NCBI GenBank assembly: GCA_047975295.1
Contig: JBKEDH010000167.1
Location: 1-14,384, forward strand
Length of the DNA stretch: 14,384 bases
From: Aestuariibaculum sp.
GTDB taxonomy: Bacteria > Bacteroidota > Bacteroidia > Flavobacteriales > Flavobacteriaceae
Direction of reading: 5' to 3'
This document shows, one piece after another, positions 4,588 through 9,136 of this stretch. The notes beneath the pieces are model-generated. The model was given only the letters and a program-made list of their open reading frames with translations. It did no database searches and was not told where the DNA came from. Made by a program: the position numbers and the translations under genes. Each line of letters starts with the position of its first letter. Position 1 is the stretch's first letter.

Positions 4588-5598
4588 TCATTCCTGTTTC
4601 CGTTCATAATTCCTAACCGCCAACTTTTGTTTAAACAAAATACGGTTTCGCAATTTTCTGGGCTTTAAAACCTCCAGACTTTCACCAAATCCGAGAATTA
4701 AACGCTCCAATTCGTAATTAATCTGAACAAAAATATTAAAAACAACGCCATCCTCACGGGTTTCTATAATACGCTGCGACCAATGGAAAGGCTTTGTAAT
4801 AATATAAGGTGCATTTTTTTTATTGACCCAAAATTGTATGCATTCGGCTTTGATGTTCGATACGGTTACGCCTACTACATCGCTATAAAAATCGTCGCCG
4901 TTAACGGCCATATCTATATATTTAAGTTTTTTGTTCTGTTTTATACCAATTATCCGGTCTAAAGCAAGTGTTATAAACTTTTCATTTTGGTAGGCCAGTA
5001 AAAACCAACGGTTATTAAACTCTTTTAATAATTGCGGGTGTACTTCTATAATTTTAGGTACTCTTGCCGAAAACGACTGATAATTAACATTAATAACAGT
5101 TTTATCTTGAATGGTTTTATAAATAACATCAATAAAGTTTAGCCCCTTTAATTGTTCGTTCTTATCTAAATGAATAATGGCCCGTTTATTGACCTGAGAT
5201 GCGTAAACCGAATCTTCCAGACGCTGTAAAACACCGTCCATCTCCTTAAAAAGCGAAAAATCCTTAAATTGTTTTAATACTTGGATGGCATTGTTCATTA
5301 TTTCAACGTCTTTATCGGTTACGGGAATGTTTACAATACTGTAATTTTCGTCTTCATATTTATAATACTTCCTATTGTAAACCACAATAGGCGCATTATA
5401 ACCAAGTTTATCACTACGCATTATTTGTATATCCAATTGTACGGTACGCTTGCTAACATTAACATCTTTACCTTCGTATTCGTAAAGAGCGTCCGATACG
5501 GCTTCTATTAAATCGTCTAATGTCCAGCTTCTAAAATGGTTTTGAAGACATTTATCTATGGTTTTATATCTAATAAGAGCGTTTTTATTAACGGCCAT
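4588..5598 (-). CDS. WYL-domain transcriptional regulator (N-terminal wHTH, central WYL, C-terminal WCX-like; BrxR/CapW/PafBC-like architecture)
   Basis: 336 aa. N-terminal HTH-like SKRTVQLDIQIM. Central segment INVNYQSFSARVPKIIEVHPQLLKEFNNRWFLLAYQNEKFITLALDRI matches the WYL domain consensus (Y.S....R.V.P..L......WYL.AY........F.LDRI). The length is typical for this family. The gene is divergent from the ncRNA/SPFH/RtcB cluster. Confidence 0.8.
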   Translation of the reverse strand: MAVNKNALIRYKTIDKCLQNHFRSWTLDDLIEAVSDALYEYEGKDVNVSKRTVQLDIQIMRSDKLGYNAPIVVYNRKYYKYEDENYSIVNIPVTDKDVEIMNNAIQVLKQFKDFSLFKEMDGVLQRLEDSVYASQVNKRAIIHLDKNEQLKGLNFIDVIYKTIQDKTVINVNYQSFSARVPKIIEVHPQLLKEFNNRWFLLAYQNEKFITLALDRIIGIKQNKKLKYIDMAVNGDDFYSDVVGVTVSNIKAECIQFWVNKKNAPYIITKPFHWSQRIIETREDGVVFNIFVQINYELERLILGFGESLEVLKPRKLRNRILFKQKLAVRNYERKQE

Positions 5599-5660
5599 AA
5601 TGTTACTGTTCTAATTCATTTTTACTAAAATATAAGAAATTTTTCAAAAAAAAATTAAAC

Positions 5661-5679
5661 TACGCAAAAACATTGCGTA
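5661..5679. promoter_or_regulatory. Perfect palindrome TACGCAA-N5-TTGCGTA, candidate operator (possibly for the adjacent WYL regulator)
   Basis: 7-bp arms are exact reverse complements with a 5-nt spacer. It lies 63 bp upstream of the WYL gene start codon and overlaps the candidate -33 element of a plus-strand promoter. Confidence 0.4.
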
Positions 5680-5700
5680 ATTACATGAAAATATTTGCAA
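5671..5700 (+). promoter_or_regulatory. Candidate Bacteroidetes-type sigma-A promoter for the plus-strand tRNA-like/Y-RNA-like transcript
   Basis: TTG at 5673-5675 and TATTTG at 5692-5697 approximate TAnnTTTG. The spacing is shorter than the ~19-nt consensus. A transcription start near 5704 is implied. This is a weak motif-only call. Confidence 0.25.
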
Positions 5701-5742
5701 TGTAATAATAAAGAAGTCTTCTTTTTAGACTTTGTAAGTAGT

Positions 5743-5772
5743 GCTCCACCAGACACAGGAAGCTGGTGGAGC
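5743..5772 (+). other. Strong hairpin: 10-bp perfect stem GCTCCACCAG/CTGGTGGAGC with 10-nt loop ACACAGGAAG
   Basis: Direct reverse-complement reading. It sits between the candidate promoter and the first tRNA-like module. It follows a second palindrome, AAAGAAG-T-CTTCTTT, at 5710-5724. Confidence 0.5.
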
Positions 5773-5798
5773 TTAACAAACGCTCTTAAATATATAAT

Positions 5799-6195: not shown

Positions 6196-6512
6196 AAAAG
6201 AAAACCAACTTTTTAAAATAGGTTACAAAAAAAACAAGGCAAAAGGTTACCGGCCAATAAGGCAATCGGGGTGACACCTTGAAATACAGTTATATTAAAA
6301 CTGTTTTTATAAGTTCTTTAAAGGTCCATACATTGGAAAAATATTGTGATTTTCACGATAAGCAACCAATATATCTGCCTTAAAAACAAGTTATAATACA
6401 CTTTAATCACTTGTATTTCCGTAGTTGGAACGATGGTTCTCTTTTGCTTTGTTTTCAATTAAAAAATAATAACAAATAAAAAATAAAAACCAATAATTAA
6501 ATAACTATAAAA

Positions 6513-7613
6513 ATGAAACGAGTACGTATTAACACAGGAACAGTAGGATTAGTGTTTAAAAACGGTAACTACAAACGTACACTTACCAATGGCACTTATT
6601 GGGTAGGATTTGGCAAACACGTCGAAAAATATGCTTTAAACCACGAATTTTATGCCCCAAAACCATTGGAAATATTAATGGAAGATAGTACACTAACAAA
6701 TATGCTACACGTGGTCGATGTTTTAGATAATGAAATTGTACTAGTTTACGAAAACAATAATTTTAAACGAGTGTTGGGAGCAGGCCGATACACCTTTTGG
6801 AATACCTTAATCGAATATAAATTCGTTACGGTCAATTTAAGTAAAATCGATATTACCGAAAGCATCGATAAAACTGTATTAAGCCATGCCCAGTTATTAC
6901 CTTATGTGCGTGTTTTTGAAATTGCTGCTTACGAAAAAGCCATTTTAATGGTCGATGATACATATATAAAAACATTGAATCACGGTACATACCGGTTTTG
7001 GAAAAACCAGCAAACCATAAAAATAGCAAAAGCCGATTTACGCCAATTACAATTAGAAATAGCAGGGCAAGAGCTACTTACAAAAGACAAAGCAACCATT
7101 CGAATCAATTTTTATGCACAGTATAAAATAACCGATATAGAAACCGCCTTAATGCAAAATAAAGATTACGAAAAACAACTTTATATAACTTTGCAATTGG
7201 CATTAAGGGCCTATGTTGGCACCTATACACTCGATGAGTTGTTAGAACAAAAAGACAACGTAGCAAAAGTCGTTTTGAACAATGTAAAAGCACAAGCCAA
7301 CAAATTAGGCGTTAACGTATTGCACACAGGTATGCGTGACATAATTTTACCGGGCGACATGAAAGATATTATGAATCAAGTACTAATCGCACAGAAAAAA
7401 GCACAGGCCAATGTTATTACAAGGCGCGAAGAAACAGCTTCTACACGAAGTCTGTTAAACACCGCCAAATTAATGGAAGACAACACCATGTTGTTCAAAT
7501 TAAAGGAAATGGAATACGTCGAAAAAATAGCCGATAAAATTGGAAAAATTACAGTGGCTGGAAACGGAAACGTTATTGAGCAATTAAAAGATATTTTTTC
7601 GGTTAACAAATAA
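6513..7613 (+). CDS. SPFH/band-7 (slipin/stomatin-like) domain protein, no predicted TM helix
   Basis: 366 aa. The C-terminal half (QELLTKDKATIRINFYAQYKITDIETAL...GVNVLHTGMRDIILPGDMKDIMNQVLIAQKKAQANVITRREETA) matches the SPFH core and the following coiled coil. The N-terminal half carries three G-x-Y-x-FW repeats ~65 aa apart. There is no N-terminal hydrophobic anchor. Confidence 0.7.
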   Translation: MKRVRINTGTVGLVFKNGNYKRTLTNGTYWVGFGKHVEKYALNHEFYAPKPLEILMEDSTLTNMLHVVDVLDNEIVLVYENNNFKRVLGAGRYTFWNTLIEYKFVTVNLSKIDITESIDKTVLSHAQLLPYVRVFEIAAYEKAILMVDDTYIKTLNHGTYRFWKNQQTIKIAKADLRQLQLEIAGQELLTKDKATIRINFYAQYKITDIETALMQNKDYEKQLYITLQLALRAYVGTYTLDELLEQKDNVAKVVLNNVKAQANKLGVNVLHTGMRDIILPGDMKDIMNQVLIAQKKAQANVITRREETASTRSLLNTAKLMEDNTMLFKLKEMEYVEKIADKIGKITVAGNGNVIEQLKDIFSVNK

Positions 7614-7620
7614 TTTTTTT

Positions 7621-7710
7621 GGGCGTAACCCCAAAACGGTAACCAATAGTTGGTTTCATAACAAAGTCAAGGCTAACCGTTTCGGGGTCGCGCTTTCCGC
7701 GCTACACGGT
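7621..7710 (+). other. GC-rich structured intergenic element (long imperfect hairpin plus CGCG-CTTTC-CGCG hairpin) between the SPFH and rtcB genes
   Basis: CCCCAAAACGGT (7629-7640) pairs with ACCGTTTCGGGG (7676-7687), and flanking bases extend the helix. There is an inner AACCAA-TAG-TTGGTT hairpin and a CGCG-CTTTC-CGCG hairpin at 7689-7701. Local GC is far above the window average. Confidence 0.35.
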
Positions 7711-7762
7711 AGCCAGCTCCAATCGCTTACGCAAATAAAACTAAAAAATAATAGAAAATAAA

Positions 7763-9136
7763 ATGAACATTACAGGAAAAGAACTCATCGCATTAGGTTA
7801 CCGGCAAGGTAAATGGATGAAAAAGGCTTTAATACACATAAACGAAAATAACTTACAGGACGAGGCATTGCTTCAATATTTAGAGCAGTTTAAATTACCC
7901 GAACTATTGGCTTTACATAAAGCACCCGTACCATTTTCAATAAACATAAAAGCAAAAAACGAATTAGAACAGGAAAATATAAATACGGTTGTGCGTTCCA
8001 TGCAAACACTAATGAAAACTCCAACCTTGGTTACCGGTGCCATTATGCCCGATGCCTGCCCAACAGGATCCAATGGTACTATTCCTGTAGGAGGCGTTGC
8101 CGTAGCTAAAAATGCCATCCATCCAGGTATGCACAGTGCCGATATTTGTTGTTCGGTTATGCTAACCGATCTAGGTAAGACCAACCCTAAAGACGTATTA
8201 GATGCTGCCCATACCAATACCCATTTTGGTCCCGGAGGCCGTGACCGCAATGCCCAATACCGTTTTCCTAACGAATTACTTAAAGCTTTTAAGGATAATA
8301 CATTGTTAAACGACAACGAACATATAAAAATAGCACGTTCGCATTTAGGAACTCAAGGCGATGGTAATCACTTTTTGTTTGTAGGCACTTCCAAAAAATC
8401 TGGAAATACCATGTTGGTAACCCACCATGGTTCAAGAGGTCCGGGAGCCAAACTATTTAAAAAAGGTATGAAAATAGCCGAACGCTTTAGAAAAGATCTA
8501 TCACCGGAAACCCTAAAACAAAACGCTTGGATTCCTTTCGATACCGAAGAAGGACAAAGTTATTGGAATGCCTTACAGGTTATACGCCAATGGACCAAAG
8601 CCAACCACGAGGTTATCCATAATGCTGTGGCACAATCTCTAAAAATTAACATAGAAGACCGTTACTGGAACGAACATAATTTTGTTTTTAAAGATGGTGA
8701 CTTGTTTTACCATGCCAAAGGAGCAACACCTTTGGATGCCAAGTTTATGCCCGATATAACAGGCCCAAGATTGATACCTCTAAACATGAGCGAACCTGTA
8801 TTGATTGTTGAAGGGGCAACAACACAAACCAATCTGGGCTTTGCTCCTCATGGAGCCGGCAGAAATATAAGCCGCACACAGCACAGAAACAGTAAAACGG
8901 GAAGTATTATGCAAATTTTTAAAGAGGAAACAAAAGGATTGGACGTTCGGTTTTTTTCTAAAGAAATCGATATTACCGAGCTACCAAGTGCTTATAAAAA
9001 CGCCCAATCGGTCAGGGAGCAAATGGACGAATTTGGTCTGGGAACCGTTTTAGACGAGGTTATGCCTTATGGTTGTATTATGGCCGGAGACTGGTTAAAA
9101 AATGCACCTTGGAAAAAGAAATACAAAAAGTTTTAA
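7763..9136 (+). CDS. rtcB: RtcB family RNA 3'-phosphate/2',3'-cyclic phosphate ligase
   Basis: 457 aa. Metal-site and guanylylation motifs are present: [47 protein letters not shown], and FAPHGAGR (the HGAGR motif with the GMP-accepting His). The N-terminus is ~50 aa longer than E. coli RtcB as I recall it. Confidence 0.9.

What the first reader, a model, noticed from the sequence alone, without database searches (positions are those of the whole stretch)
4588..9136. Candidate undescribed module: WYL regulator divergent from tRNA-like/Y-RNA-like RNAs, SPFH protein and RtcB ligase, with no Rsr, RtcA or RtcR
Known RtcB contexts are rtcR-rtcBA, where a CARF-domain sigma-54 activator senses damaged RNA, and rsr-yrlA/B-rtcBA, which couples the Ro60 ortholog and Y RNAs to RtcB. 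Here the RtcB gene follows a cluster of tRNA-mimic RNAs and a TM-less SPFH protein. Nothing in the window looks like a TROVE/vWA Rsr protein, an RtcA cyclase, or a sigma-54 activator. Instead, a WYL-domain regulator is transcribed divergently from the RNA cluster, and a perfect palindrome sits in the shared control region. WYL domains are ligand-sensing modules that bind nucleic acids or nucleotides, and BrxR/CapW/PafBC-type proteins gate defense or DNA-damage operons. My inference is that WYL replaces RtcR as the sensor controlling an RNA-repair or RNA-surveillance unit made of Y-RNA-like RNAs, SPFH and RtcB. The role of the SPFH protein (a scaffold, or a Ro-like RNA chaperone substitute) is unknown.
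Basis: inference. Interest (0 to 1): 0.8.

Follow-up and report, generated by a model that had tools for sequence, protein, structure and literature searches.

The report
WYL-controlled RtcB, SPFH, tRNA-like RNA island
This is a compact copy of an RNA-repair gene island common in marine Flavobacteriaceae (an RtcB RNA ligase, a soluble SPFH scaffold protein and a long tRNA-mimicking RNA); the kind was predicted by others in 2016, and what this work adds is that a WYL-type sensor-regulator seems to switch the island on through a shared DNA palindrome.

Summary
**Observation: confirmed.** The window is a whole 14.4-kb MAG contig (Aestuariibaculum sp.). It holds:
- a WYL/WCX regulator (4588-5598, minus strand);
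- an exact 7-N5-7 palindrome (5661-5679);
- a structured leader of about 800 nt, with a tRNA-Pro(UGG)-like gene and a composite RNA carrying two circularly permuted tRNA-like modules;
- a TM-less SPFH protein;
- a divergent RtcB with intact catalytic motifs.

No Rsr, RtcA or RtcR is present in the window.

**Interpretation: partly supported.**
- The juxtaposition is not chance. The RNA 5' core lies just upstream of SPFH in 78 of 80 related loci and shows strong covariation.
- The palindrome, followed by a Bacteroidota -7 box, recurs 93 times against about 2.6 expected. It sits before WYL, the RNA/SPFH unit, rtcB and other repair genes.
- In 58 WYL-centred metagenome loci, 34 have a divergent rtcB and 46 have some RNA-repair gene.

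**"Undescribed" does not hold.** Burroughs & Aravind (2016) described Band-7 + tRNA-like RNA + RtcB systems. The same lab cites that paper for WYL factors and says some WYL/CARF factors regulate RNA repair. Anabaena TrcR co-regulates a tRNA array, rtcB and a slipin.

**Possibly new:** the operator, the RNA anatomy, the link to tRNA arrays of up to 19 genes, and WYL-PhyH fusions.

**Verdict:** new member of a known, experimentally untested kind.

The parts
4588..5598 (-). WYL-domain transcription factor (336 aa: three N-terminal helices, WYL barrel, WCX domain), transcribed divergently from the RNA/SPFH/rtcB unit
   Evidence: Pfam finds WYL and WCX. The AF2 model shows helices 5-64, a beta barrel at 168-222 and WCX at 252-331. 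The top 32 Foldseek PDB hits are all WYL transcription factors, aligned over the full length: PafBC, DriD, then CapW and BrxR. Orthologs sit in the same island in many genera.
5661..5679 (.). Candidate WYL operator: exact inverted repeat TACGCAA-N5-TTGCGTA, 63 nt from the WYL start codon
   Evidence: It is the only match in the window. In 993 kb of related loci plus the window there are 93 copies against 2.55 expected; 89 are intergenic and 86 are followed by a TTTG-type box. It lies within 150 nt of the WYL start in 15 of 15 WYL loci and within 260 nt in 38 of 75 WYL-centred metagenome loci.
5690..5697 (+). Bacteroidota -7-like promoter box (AATATTTG, consensus TAnnTTTG) of the operator-promoter cassette; the inferred transcription start is near 5703
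   Evidence: The block aATATTTGcagaGTAATTA is conserved after the palindrome in nearly every copy. The promoter consensus comes from my own knowledge of Bacteroidota promoters, and the start site is inferred.
5714..5732 (+). Leader hairpin 1 (AAGTCT / AGACTT)
   Evidence: Read directly from the sequence; conserved in close relatives (alignment A7).
5743..5772 (+). Leader hairpin 2 (GCTCCACCAG / CTGGTGGAGC, 10 bp)
   Evidence: Alignment A7 shows compensatory changes, for example CTGCTAG/CTAGCAG and CAATCAG/CTGATGG.
5799..5870 (+). Supernumerary tRNA-Pro(UGG)-like gene with C1-G72, A73, a weak D stem and no encoded CCA
   Evidence: Rfam tRNA scores 51.9 bits, but ARAGORN does not call it. It is 87% identical on average to the tRNA-Pro(UGG) genes of tRNA arrays in related loci, and shares their unusual D arm.
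5893..6012 (+). Conserved 5' domain of the SPFH-associated RNA: a closing helix (5893-5982) encloses an invariant hairpin GUGUU-UCGGUAU-AGCAC and a long covarying hairpin, followed by a further hairpin at 5992-6012
   Evidence: The core is present just upstream of SPFH in 78 of 80 loci. RNAalifold on 45 sequences predicts 40 pairs, 23 with compensatory changes. No Rfam family matches this domain.
6018..6087 (+). tRNA-like module 1 (YrlA-like, circularly permuted): closing stem 6018-6022/6083-6087, T arm 6028-6044, acceptor-like hairpin 6045-6062, D arm 6065-6081
   Evidence: Rfam YrlA scores 47.1 bits, below its gathering score of 69. On 40 sequences, 98.7% of cells pair and 14 of 19 pairs change on both sides; slid controls reach at most 52% paired.
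6097..6189 (+). tRNA-like module 2 (permuted): T arm 6097-6113, acceptor-like hairpin 6114-6129, D arm 6130-6149, anticodon-like arm 6150-6166, T-like hairpin 6173-6189
   Evidence: A second GTTCGA T loop lies 60-110 nt after the first in 73 of the 75 loci examined, plus the window. The module is conserved in alignment A2. Rfam gives a partial tRNA match at 6061-6115, 33.9 bits.
6190..6512 (+). Rest of the conserved leader up to the SPFH start, including the strongly conserved block 6383-6468 of unknown role
6513..7613 (+). Soluble SPFH ('slipin family') protein: three N-terminal beta repeats, a stomatin-like SPFH core and C-terminal helices
7621..7695 (+). GC-rich long hairpin in the SPFH-rtcB spacer, at the position where relatives carry the rtcB copy of the operator cassette
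   Evidence: MFE -35.2 kcal/mol, z = -2.0. No copy is found in the 85 loci held at that point.
7727..7735 (+). Remnant operator half-site TTACGCAAA upstream of rtcB, with no -7 box after it
   Evidence: Read from the sequence. Relatives carry the full cassette 49-126 nt before rtcB.
7763..9136 (+). Divergent RtcB RNA ligase (457 aa)
   Evidence: Pfam RtcB. The catalytic motifs align with P. horikoshii RtcB: MPD, DICC, GNHF, HHGSRG, HAKGAT and PHGAGR. It scores far below the NCBIfam equivalog cut-offs for E. coli-type RtcB and for PrfH-linked RtcB.

Best explanation
**What it is.** The window carries a stripped-down copy of an RNA-repair / translation-stress island that is widespread in Flavobacteriaceae.

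**Proposed mechanism**
1. A WYL-type one-component transcription factor binds, as a dimer, the palindrome TACGCAA-N5-TTGCGTA (inferred).
2. The palindrome is centred where a Bacteroidota -33 promoter element would lie, upstream of a -7 box that points away from the WYL gene.
3. A nucleic-acid ligand produced by RNA damage, for example broken tRNA ends, binds the WYL domain and switches the promoter on (inferred). This could work by direct activation, as in DriD and PafBC, or by relief of repression, as in BrxR and CapW. The WYL gene is probably autoregulated by the same site.
4. In this window one cassette drives a single long transcript (inferred). It holds two leader hairpins, a spare tRNA-Pro(UGG), a roughly 300-nt composite RNA, then the SPFH and rtcB genes. 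The composite RNA has a novel 5' domain and two circularly permuted tRNA-like modules, the first built like the YrlA tRNA-like domain.
5. The RNA is probably cut out by tRNA-processing enzymes and bound by an oligomer of the soluble SPFH protein, which plays the scaffold role that Ro60 plays for Y RNAs. This would recruit or assist RtcB in re-joining cleaved tRNAs or other translation RNAs, while the spare tRNA tops up the pool (inferred).

**Shown here:** the gene and RNA anatomy, the conservation, the RNA structure, the recurrence of the operator, and the WYL-rtcB linkage.

**Inferred:** DNA binding by this WYL protein, its ligand, the direction of control, co-transcription, the SPFH-RNA complex, and the substrates of RtcB.
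For: **Anatomy.**

**Synteny**
- WYL(-)...SPFH-RtcB(+) occurs in the closest genera.
- WYL also lies in the island in Polaribacter, Gelidibacter and Flagellimonas.

**Operator**
- 93 copies against 2.55 expected; 89 of 93 are intergenic and 86 of 93 are followed by a TTTG-type box.
- By next downstream gene, 49 copies precede SPFH (with the RNA in between), 14 precede rtcB, and 24 precede other island genes.
- All 15 WYL genes have a copy within 150 nt of their start.

**WYL-centred metagenome loci** (WYL 47-72% identical)
- Of 58 loci with at least 3 kb upstream, 34 have a divergent rtcB within 3 kb and 46 have at least one RNA-repair gene.
- The palindrome lies 27-105 nt from the WYL start, with the -7 box pointing toward rtcB.

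**WYL fold.** All 32 top PDB matches are WYL transcription factors. DriD and PafBC (E about 1e-12 to 1e-10) rank ahead of CapW and BrxR (about 1e-6).

**RNA**
- The 5' core is conserved upstream of SPFH in 78 of 80 loci.
- 23 of 40 predicted pairs covary in the 5' domain.
- Module 1 is 98.7% paired and 14 of 19 pairs change on both sides.
- The YrlA model matches at E = 3e-9 in the 1-kb search.

**RtcB.** The catalytic residues are kept.

**SPFH.** It is soluble, with a stomatin-like core and extra beta repeats.

**Island partners in relatives.** PrfH, RlaP nucleotidyltransferases, an RNase H-like protein (PF04308), an RNase T-type exonuclease, a T4 Rnl1-type ligase, and tRNA arrays of up to 19 genes.

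**Precedents**
- Band-7/b7a-tRNA/RtcB (10.1101/312249).
- WYL and CARF factors regulating RNA repair (PMC9503650).
- Anabaena TrcR, which represses a tRNA array, rtcB and a slipin gene (PMC10272220 and PMC8421152).
Against: - No experiment supports any step, and all regulatory claims are comparative.
- 45 of the 59 related loci with the motif have no WYL gene within 6 kb. Aquimarina algicola has none within 10 kb, yet keeps the motif before rtcB and the RNA. So either WYL acts in trans or another protein binds the site.
- Only 38 of 75 WYL loci show the strict motif near WYL.
- The WYL model has low confidence (pLDDT 61), and Pfam finds no HTH domain.
- In this window rtcB has no operator of its own, and a strong hairpin lies between SPFH and rtcB. 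Co-transcription is therefore assumed, not shown.
- SPFH-RNA binding has no direct support.
- SPFH orthologs occur in only 11 of 58 WYL loci, so SPFH is an add-on rather than the core.
- An Rsr encoded elsewhere could be the true partner of the YrlA-like module.
Confidence: 0.6

Rival explanations
1. The palindrome is the site of a different regulator, not the WYL protein. WYL sits next to rtcB for another reason, for example to control only itself or another gene.
For: In 45 of 59 related loci that carry the motif, no WYL gene lies within 6 kb. L084 has none within 10 kb, and an AraC-type gene ends just upstream of the motif. The strict motif is found near only 38 of 75 WYL genes.
Against: Every WYL gene in the SPFH-centred set has the motif within 150 nt of its start (15 of 15), as do L081, L082 and L085. 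Two WYL lineages that differ by 50% (the plain form and the PhyH-fused form) both keep it. No other DNA-binding protein recurs in the islands. With 10-kb flanks, WYL appears at the island border in L085, so many apparent absences are probably limits of the flank length.
Confidence: 0.15
2. The RNA region is only a decayed remnant of a tRNA array that now serves as a long 5' UTR of the SPFH gene. It has no function as a separate RNA.
For: Related loci carry real tRNA arrays at the same place. The modules score poorly as tRNAs, 30-42 bits. The anticodon-like loops of module 2 differ between loci.
Against: The 5' domain and module 1 are conserved at about 75% nucleotide identity across genera whose SPFH proteins are only 63-79% identical. 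They show abundant compensatory changes that keep non-tRNA helices and a permuted arm order. Decay would not preserve these.
Confidence: 0.1
3. It is an ordinary Rsr (Ro60)/Y RNA/RtcB system whose Rsr, and perhaps RtcA, lie elsewhere in the genome. SPFH would be unrelated to the RNA.
For: Module 1 has the arm order of YrlA and matches the YrlA model at 47 bits. The window is a whole 14-kb contig of a MAG, so the rest of the genome is unseen.
Against: The RNA 5' core is physically tied to SPFH in 78 of 80 loci. No TROVE domain appears among the annotated genes of five 16-21-kb loci or in the window. The YrlA stems that would form the Ro-binding helix do not align. No locus reaches the YrlA gathering score.
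Confidence: 0.1
4. The gene order is a chance juxtaposition peculiar to this strain.
For: None beyond the prior. In this window the flanking genes differ from those of relatives: two extra genes lie between the ABC ATPase gene and WYL.
Against: The synteny, the operator and the RNA recur across many genera and in independent metagenome contigs.
Confidence: 0.01

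Closest known systems
Band-7 (SPFH) / b7a-tRNA / RtcB RNA-repair systems predicted by Burroughs & Aravind, Nucleic Acids Res 2016 (as summarised in bioRxiv 10.1101/312249)
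   Same: An RtcB ligase lies next to a Band-7/SPFH protein and a tRNA-like non-coding RNA. YrlA-type RNAs are occasionally next to the Band-7 protein. PrfH and RlaP nucleotidyltransferases sit in the same islands. The proposed role is a scaffold plus RNA cofactor for ligation.
   Different: I could not read the 2016 paper, so I cannot say whether it covers these Flavobacteriaceae loci, the composite RNA, the WYL operator or the tRNA arrays. As of 2018 the b7a-tRNA had not been validated experimentally.
rsr-yrlA/yrlB-rtcBA operon of Salmonella, controlled by RtcR (a CARF + sigma-54 activator)
   Same: An RtcB ligase, a tRNA-mimicking RNA with the arm order T arm, acceptor hairpin, D arm, and a divergent sensor-regulator that is expected to respond to damaged RNA.
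   Different: There is no Rsr/TROVE, RtcA or RtcR. SPFH stands in the place of Ro60. The regulator is a WYL factor acting at a sigma-A-type Bacteroidota promoter. The RNA has a different 5' domain and a second tRNA-like module, and it falls below the Rfam YrlA threshold.
TrcR regulon of Anabaena sp. PCC 7120 (tRNA L-array, rtcB, alr0739-alr0740 slipin; PMC10272220, PMC8421152)
   Same: The same three parts are co-controlled by one DNA motif placed before separate transcription units: supernumerary tRNA genes, rtcB and a 'slipin family' SPFH protein. In Anabaena the regulon is induced by translational stress.
   Different: The Anabaena regulator is a ribbon-helix-helix repressor that binds direct repeats over the -10 box, and its genes are scattered over chromosome and plasmid. 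Here the regulator is a WYL factor, the site is a palindrome at about -33, and the genes are clustered. The window itself keeps only one tRNA. I did not test homology between the two slipins.
WYL-domain transcription factors DriD, PafBC (activators) and BrxR, CapW (repressors)
   Same: The fold matches over the full length (HTH, WYL, WCX). There is a palindromic site next to the regulator's own gene, and the regulator controls a stress or conflict module.
   Different: Sequence identity is only 11-18%, and no PDB match is found by sequence. The target is RNA repair rather than DNA damage or phage defence. The ligand is unknown. Some orthologs carry a C-terminal PhyH dioxygenase domain.
Eukaryotic vault (MVP + vault RNA + TEP1)
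   Same: The domain order is beta-repeat domains, an SPFH-like 'shoulder', then a long helix, and the protein is linked to a small structured RNA. MVP is the PDB protein aligned over the longest stretch.

Membership tests
Band-7/b7a-tRNA/RtcB RNA-repair system | RtcB-family ligase with intact active site | tested here: met
   Pfam RtcB. The metal-binding and GMP-histidine motifs align with P. horikoshii RtcB.
Band-7/b7a-tRNA/RtcB RNA-repair system | Adjacent Band-7/SPFH protein | tested here: met
   Pfam Band_7, E = 6e-26. The predicted fold is stomatin-like. The gene lies directly upstream of rtcB.
Band-7/b7a-tRNA/RtcB RNA-repair system | tRNA-like non-coding RNA next to the Band-7 gene | tested here: met
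   Rfam tRNA and YrlA matches. The tRNA-like modules are supported by covariation, and the RNA 5' core lies upstream of SPFH in 78 of 80 loci. Identity with the published b7a-tRNA could not be checked because the paper is not held.
Band-7/b7a-tRNA/RtcB RNA-repair system | Conserved gene neighbourhood across taxa | tested here: met
Rsr (Ro60)/Y RNA/RtcBA operon | Rsr protein (TROVE + vWA) | tested here: not met
   No TROVE or vWA hit in any window ORF or in the annotated neighbours of L081-L085. The rest of the genome is unseen.
Rsr (Ro60)/Y RNA/RtcBA operon | RtcA cyclase and RtcR (CARF + sigma-54 AAA+) regulator | tested here: not met
   No such Pfam domains in the window.
Rfam YrlA (RF02553) | Score at or above the gathering threshold (69 bits), including the Ro-binding stem | tested here: not met
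   The score is 47.1 bits. The outer stems show mismatches and a deletion. None of 11 related loci reaches the threshold.
Rfam YrlA (RF02553) | Permuted tRNA-like domain: T arm, acceptor-like hairpin, D arm, closed by a stem | tested here: met
   98.7% of cells pair and 14 of 19 pairs have double changes; controls reach at most 52%.
WYL-domain transcription factors | HTH + WYL + WCX architecture | tested here: met
   Pfam finds WYL and WCX. Pfam does not find an HTH, but the model has three N-terminal helices and aligns over its full length with DriD, PafBC, CapW and BrxR. The model has moderate confidence (pLDDT 61).
WYL-domain transcription factors | Binds a dyad-symmetric site near its own gene and its target promoter | tested here: inconclusive
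   The site is present and conserved. Binding itself cannot be tested with these tools.
WYL-domain transcription factors | Nucleic-acid ligand bound by the WYL domain | not testable with these tools
   Needs biochemistry.
tRNA L-array / translational-stress regulon (Anabaena type) | Long array of supernumerary tRNA genes | tested here: not met
   The window has one tRNA-like gene. Related loci have arrays of up to 19 tRNA genes, so the family of islands meets this feature but the window does not.
tRNA L-array / translational-stress regulon (Anabaena type) | Shared cis motif before the tRNA, rtcB and slipin units | tested here: inconclusive
   The motif precedes the rtcB and RNA/SPFH units. The arrays usually lie just upstream of the RNA's operator and downstream of an operator-driven rtcB/PrfH/TPR unit. 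Co-transcription of the arrays is inferred.
tRNA L-array / translational-stress regulon (Anabaena type) | TrcR ribbon-helix-helix repressor | not tested
   No RHH protein was noticed in the islands, but I made no dedicated search.
Vault / major vault protein | Many MVP repeat domains + shoulder + cap helix that assemble into a cage | tested here: inconclusive

The most novel reading that the evidence does not exclude
The soluble SPFH protein, with its triple beta repeat, forms a ring or small vault-like cage. The cage holds the composite RNA (a novel 5' domain plus two permuted tRNA-like modules) and docks RtcB. This would make a Ro-independent ribonucleoprotein machine for tRNA repair or tRNA quality control. 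A WYL factor that senses broken tRNA ends would switch it on. Together with the linked tRNA arrays, PrfH and RlaP, it would act as a backup translation kit against ribotoxins or phage. Such a particle would be a bacterial counterpart of the vault and of the Ro-Y RNA particles.
Probability: 0.15. Interest if true: 0.85.

Novelty: new member of a known kind. Interest (0 to 1): 0.5.

Why it matters
Bacterial RtcB systems are well studied only in the RtcR/RtcA and Rsr/Y RNA form. The Band-7/tRNA-like RNA form has been a purely computational prediction since 2016.

This locus and its relatives turn that prediction into experiments that can be run:
- a 19-bp operator to mutate;
- a WYL sensor whose ligand can be sought;
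- an RNA with a covariation-backed structure;
- a soluble SPFH protein that can be purified and tested for RNA binding and oligomer form.

Three unrelated regulators now appear to sit over RtcB: RtcR (shown), TrcR (shown) and WYL (proposed here). TrcR is shown, and WYL is inferred, to co-control SPFH 'slipin' proteins and spare tRNA genes as well. This points to a common bacterial response to damage of the translation RNA pool, with relevance to toxin-antitoxin, colicin and anti-phage anticodon nucleases.

Tried and rejected
**Steps that led nowhere**
- Burroughs & Aravind 2016 could not be read. Neither the DOI nor PMC5062991 is held, and a title search found only citing papers. What that paper contains is taken from citing papers.
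- ARAGORN finds no tRNA in the window. The tRNA-like gene is seen only by Rfam.
- Rfam YrlA stays below its gathering score in the window and in 11 related loci. I therefore do not file the RNA as YrlA.
- A PDB sequence search with the WYL protein found nothing. Only the fold search was informative.
- NCBIfam has no family for the WYL protein, and it matches SPFH and RtcB only far below the cut-offs.
- PADLOC matches only generic CRISPR-associated WYL models, and nothing for SPFH or RtcB. There is thus no support for filing this as a known anti-phage defence system.
- No SPFH relatives were found in viral contigs, so I dropped a phage-borne origin.
- The sigma-70 promoter and terminator scan was uninformative, which is expected for Bacteroidota.
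- The GC-rich hairpin at 7621-7695 has no copies in the 85 loci held at that point, so a repeated mobile element was not supported.

**Could not be tested**
- Rsr elsewhere in the genome, because the window is the whole contig.

**Considered and rejected**
- Chance juxtaposition.
- The RNA as mere tRNA pseudogene debris.

Full report
**1. What is in the window**

The 14,384-base window is a complete contig of a MAG named Aestuariibaculum sp. The WYL and SPFH proteins are found in the protein collection at 100% identity, on a longest contig of 14,384 bases.

ORF listing and Pfam give this gene order:
- prolyl oligopeptidase, 3-2162 (+)
- ABC ATPase, 2181-3122 (+)
- a 253-aa ORF with no Pfam hit, 3268-4029 (+)
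- GNAT acetyltransferase, 4045-4557 (+)
- WYL + WCX regulator, 4588-5598 (-)
- a 914-nt gap
- SPFH/Band_7 protein, 6513-7613 (+)
- RtcB, 7763-9136 (+)
- PEP carboxylase, 9339-11957 (-)
- a 611-aa ORF with no Pfam hit, 12194-14029 (+)

No TROVE, vWA, RtcA or sigma-54 activator domain is present. The SPFH protein has no hydrophobic segment. The inverted repeat TACGCAA-AAACA-TTGCGTA lies at 5661-5679, 63 nt from the WYL start codon.

In the gap, Rfam finds a tRNA match at 5799-5870 (51.9 bits) and a partial one at 6061-6115 (33.9 bits). It also finds a sub-threshold YrlA match at 6005-6107 (47.1 bits against a gathering score of 69; E = 3e-9 in the 1-kb search). ARAGORN calls nothing.

**2. The juxtaposition is conserved**

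A scan of one genome per species with the SPFH protein found relatives in at least 553 species. The 80 best loci are all Flavobacteriaceae or unclassified Bacteroidota MAGs, with SPFH 63-79% identical.

The nucleotide sequence of window 5886-6042 is found directly upstream of SPFH in 78 of these 80 loci, at about 72-86% identity. That is as well conserved as the protein-coding gene itself.

The order WYL(-) ... SPFH(+) RtcB(+) is kept in the closest genera: Tamlana, Thalassobellus, Flavivirga, Psychroserpens, Lacinutrix, Winogradskyella, Olleya and Algibacter. Elsewhere the same parts are shuffled:
- rtcB lies upstream instead of downstream.
- A second RtcB paralog is paired with a PrfH release-factor homolog.
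- A T4 Rnl1-type RNA ligase replaces RtcB after SPFH in L013.
- Further partners appear: a TPR protein, RlaP nucleotidyltransferases, an RNase H-like protein (PF04308) and an RNase T-type exonuclease.

This is the mosaic expected of an RNA-repair island.

**3. tRNA arrays**

In most related loci the space upstream of the conserved RNA holds a tight array of up to 19 tRNA genes. They are on the same strand and in a recurring order (also L084 and L085).

The window's 'tRNA-like' element at 5799-5870 is an ortholog of the tRNA-Pro(UGG) of these arrays. Mean identity is 87%, with the same odd D arm, C1-G72 and A73. The closest relatives keep just one or two such tRNAs, Tyr and/or Pro. The window is thus the minimal form of the island.

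**4. The RNA**

Three lines of evidence show a real structured RNA rather than debris.

(a) *The 5' domain (5893-6012).* RNAalifold on 45 sequences predicts 40 pairs, and 23 of them have compensatory changes. The domain has:
- a closing helix (5893-5982);
- an invariant hairpin GUGUU-UCGGUAU-AGCAC;
- a long hairpin that covaries freely;
- a further hairpin at 5992-6012.

No Rfam family matches this domain.

(b) *Module 1 (6018-6087).* A stem UCUAU/AUAGA (UCUGU/ACAGA in other loci) closes three arms in this order: a canonical T arm, an acceptor-like hairpin of free sequence, and a D arm. On 40 sequences, 98.7% of cells pair and 14 of 19 pairs change on both sides. No shuffle reaches the observed values, and slid controls pair at no more than 52%. 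This arm order is that of the YrlA tRNA-like domain, as shown by the structure line of the Rfam YrlA model.

(c) *Module 2 (6097-6189).* It contains a second T arm, a second acceptor-like hairpin, a D arm, an anticodon-like arm and a T-like hairpin. A second GTTCGA T loop follows the first in 73 of the 75 loci examined, and in the window.

Two leader hairpins (5714-5732 and 5743-5772) are also conserved, the second with compensatory changes. The rest of the leader up to the SPFH start is conserved in close relatives, including a strongly conserved block at 6383-6468 that I cannot explain. The single-sequence fold of 5886-6195 has z = -3.8.

**5. The operator**

The palindrome, allowing up to 2 mismatches, occurs 93 times in 993 kb of related loci plus the window. 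Shuffles give 2.55.
- 89 copies are intergenic.
- 86 are followed about 10 nt later by a TTTG-type box. The conserved sequence is aATATTTGcagaGTAATTA, which resembles the Bacteroidota -7 element TAnnTTTG (consensus from my own knowledge).
- In the SPFH-oriented loci the -7 box lies downstream of the palindrome on the SPFH strand.

The copies lie:
- within 150 nt of the WYL start in 15 of 15 loci with WYL, pointing away from WYL;
- before the conserved RNA, with SPFH as the next downstream gene (49 copies, about 730-2,000 nt from its start);
- 49-126 nt before rtcB (14 copies);
- before other island genes.

The centre of the palindrome falls where a -33 TTG element would be expected, about 19 nt upstream of the -7 box. 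No TTG is present at that spacing (read from the sequence; the promoter rule is from my own knowledge). A protein bound there could either replace the -33 contact (activation) or block it (repression).

In this window one cassette serves both WYL and the RNA/SPFH unit. The copy before rtcB is missing: only a half-site TTACGCAAA remains at 7727-7735, and a GC-rich hairpin unique to this contig fills 7621-7695.

**6. WYL-centred view**

With 10-kb flanks, WYL appears at the border of islands that looked WYL-less at 6 kb. An example is Flagellimonas L085, with the order WYL(-), palindrome, RtcB, TPR, tRNA array, palindrome, RNA, SPFH. In Polaribacter and Gelidibacter, WYL also lies between or beside RtcB/RlaP and SPFH, with the palindrome alongside.

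A scan of metagenome contigs with the WYL alignment gave 80 further loci, with WYL 47-72% identical. Of the 58 loci with at least 3 kb upstream of WYL:
- 34 have a divergently transcribed rtcB within 3 kb, of either paralog type;
- 46 have at least one recognisable RNA-repair gene;
- 11 have an SPFH ortholog.

Of 75 loci with at least 260 nt upstream, 38 have the strict palindrome within 260 nt of the WYL start. In the 16 cases inspected it lies 27-105 nt from the start, with the -7 box pointing toward rtcB. The conserved core is therefore WYL, palindrome and rtcB. SPFH plus the RNA is a frequent add-on.

The exception matters. Aquimarina algicola (L084) keeps the motif before rtcB and the RNA but has no WYL within 10 kb.

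**7. The proteins**

*WYL.* Pfam finds WYL and WCX but no HTH. The AF2 model (pLDDT 61) shows three N-terminal helices, a beta barrel and the WCX domain. Its 32 best PDB matches are all WYL transcription factors aligned over the whole length. The activators PafBC and DriD (E 3e-12 to 3e-9 for most chains) rank ahead of the repressors CapW and BrxR (about 1e-6 to 1e-4). One WYL lineage, 50-55% identical to the window protein, carries a C-terminal PhyH dioxygenase domain.

*RtcB.* The motifs that hold the metals and the GMP-histidine in P. horikoshii RtcB are kept. The protein scores far below the NCBIfam equivalog cut-offs for both E. coli-type and PrfH-linked RtcB. It is a separate clade.

*SPFH.* NCBI names it 'slipin family protein'. 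The AF2 model (pLDDT above 85 for residues 1-280) shows:
- three five-stranded beta modules, which are also visible as sequence repeats;
- a stomatin-like core;
- C-terminal helices.

**8. What is known already**

- Wang and colleagues (bioRxiv 10.1101/312249) state that Burroughs & Aravind 2016 found RtcB next to a Band-7 protein and a predicted 'band 7-associated tRNA'. They add that YrlA is occasionally next to the Band-7 protein, and that the RNA had not been validated.
- Iyer, Burroughs and Aravind 2022 (PMC9503650) write that CARF and WYL factors may sense RNAs with cyclic-phosphate ends and that some regulate RNA repair pathways. They cite the 2016 paper for WYL factors.
- In Anabaena, the ribbon-helix-helix repressor TrcR controls a 26-gene tRNA array, rtcB (77-fold) and alr0739-alr0740, a 'slipin family protein' (42- to 71-fold). 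The array is induced by translational stress (PMC10272220 and PMC8421152).
- I found no paper that describes this operator, this composite RNA, or the link between tRNA arrays, SPFH and WYL in Bacteroidota. However, the key 2016 paper is not in the library.

**9. How it most likely works**

*Shown:* the anatomy, the conservation, the RNA structure, the recurrence of the operator and the WYL-rtcB linkage.

*Inferred:*
- The WYL protein binds the palindrome as a dimer.
- A product of RNA damage bound by the WYL domain turns the cassette on, and WYL limits its own expression through the same site.
- The window's single cassette yields one transcript, from about 5703 through the RNA, SPFH and (past the hairpin) rtcB.
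- tRNA-processing enzymes release the tRNA and the tRNA-like RNA.
- The SPFH oligomer binds the RNA and helps RtcB re-join cleaved tRNAs, while the spare tRNA tops up the pool.

The fold match leans toward the activator type, and the missing -33 element fits that. The short distance to the WYL start fits autorepression. I put the whole model at 0.6, and the narrower claim that WYL controls the unit through this palindrome at about 0.7.

**10. Verdict**

It is a new, minimal member of a known and experimentally untested kind. Several details may be new:
- the operator;
- the RNA anatomy;
- the link to tRNA arrays;
- the WYL-PhyH fusion;
- the triple-repeat SPFH.

Interest is moderate (0.5). A specialist would not be surprised by the parts, but the locus makes a ten-year-old prediction directly testable.

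Noticed in passing
Related loci, e.g. L046 777-2562, L076 560-2382, L022 1251-3973, L033 2763-4042, L084 6872-8114: Long, tightly packed arrays of up to 19 tRNA genes lie just upstream of the conserved RNA + SPFH. They are on the same strand and share a recurring order. Their tRNAs are AT-rich and divergent, and they resemble the inducible 'L-arrays' of cyanobacteria.
   Followed up: partly
L002 1051-2772(-), and likewise L003, L005, L006, L011, L014, L027: One lineage of the WYL regulator (50-55% identical to the window protein) is fused to a C-terminal PhyH-type 2-oxoglutarate/Fe(II) dioxygenase domain, giving about 573 aa in total. Its role is unknown; it could modify or sense a nucleic-acid ligand.
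   Followed up: partly
window 6513-7040 (SPFH residues 1-175): The N-terminal part of the SPFH protein is a triple repeat of a five-stranded beta module (VGLVFKNGNYKRTLTNGTYW / IVLVYENNNFKRVLGAGRYTFW / AILMVDDTYIKTLNHGTYRFW). This gives a layout like that of major vault protein: beta repeats, an SPFH shoulder, then helices.
   Followed up: partly
window 7621-7695: A GC-rich long hairpin (MFE -35 kcal/mol for 7612-7735) fills the SPFH-rtcB spacer, where relatives have the operator-promoter cassette of rtcB. It has no copy in the 85 loci held at that point. It could be a terminator, a processing site or an insertion.
   Followed up: partly
L013 7315-8343(+): In one locus a T4 Rnl1-type RNA ligase (PF09511), preceded by the same palindrome (7260), takes the place of RtcB downstream of SPFH. 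One ligase family has replaced another within the same regulated slot.
   Followed up: partly
window 6383-6468: A strongly conserved block (CTTGTATTTCCGTAGTTAGAAAGATGGTT... in relatives) lies 45-130 nt upstream of the SPFH start. Its role is unknown; it could be a second promoter, a riboregulator or a protein site. Relatives also have two extra hairpins just before the start codon, and the window lacks them.
   Followed up: no
window 5714-5732 and 5743-5772: Two conserved hairpins sit at the 5' end of the inferred transcript, the second with compensatory changes across genera. They may be stabilising or processing signals.
   Followed up: partly
L013 7132-7207(-): An Rfam Flavo-1 RNA match (53.6 bits against a gathering score of 42) lies on the opposite strand, right after the SPFH gene.
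   Followed up: no
window 3268-4029(+) and 12194-14029(+): Two ORFs (253 aa and 611 aa) have no Pfam hit and no meaningful NCBIfam family. The 253-aa ORF and the GNAT gene lie between the ABC ATPase gene and WYL, which directly abut in most relatives that have both.
   Followed up: no
L119 about 8960-9000: A short tandem repeat (CTGAACA x5) lies between the palindrome and the WYL start codon in one metagenome locus.
   Followed up: no
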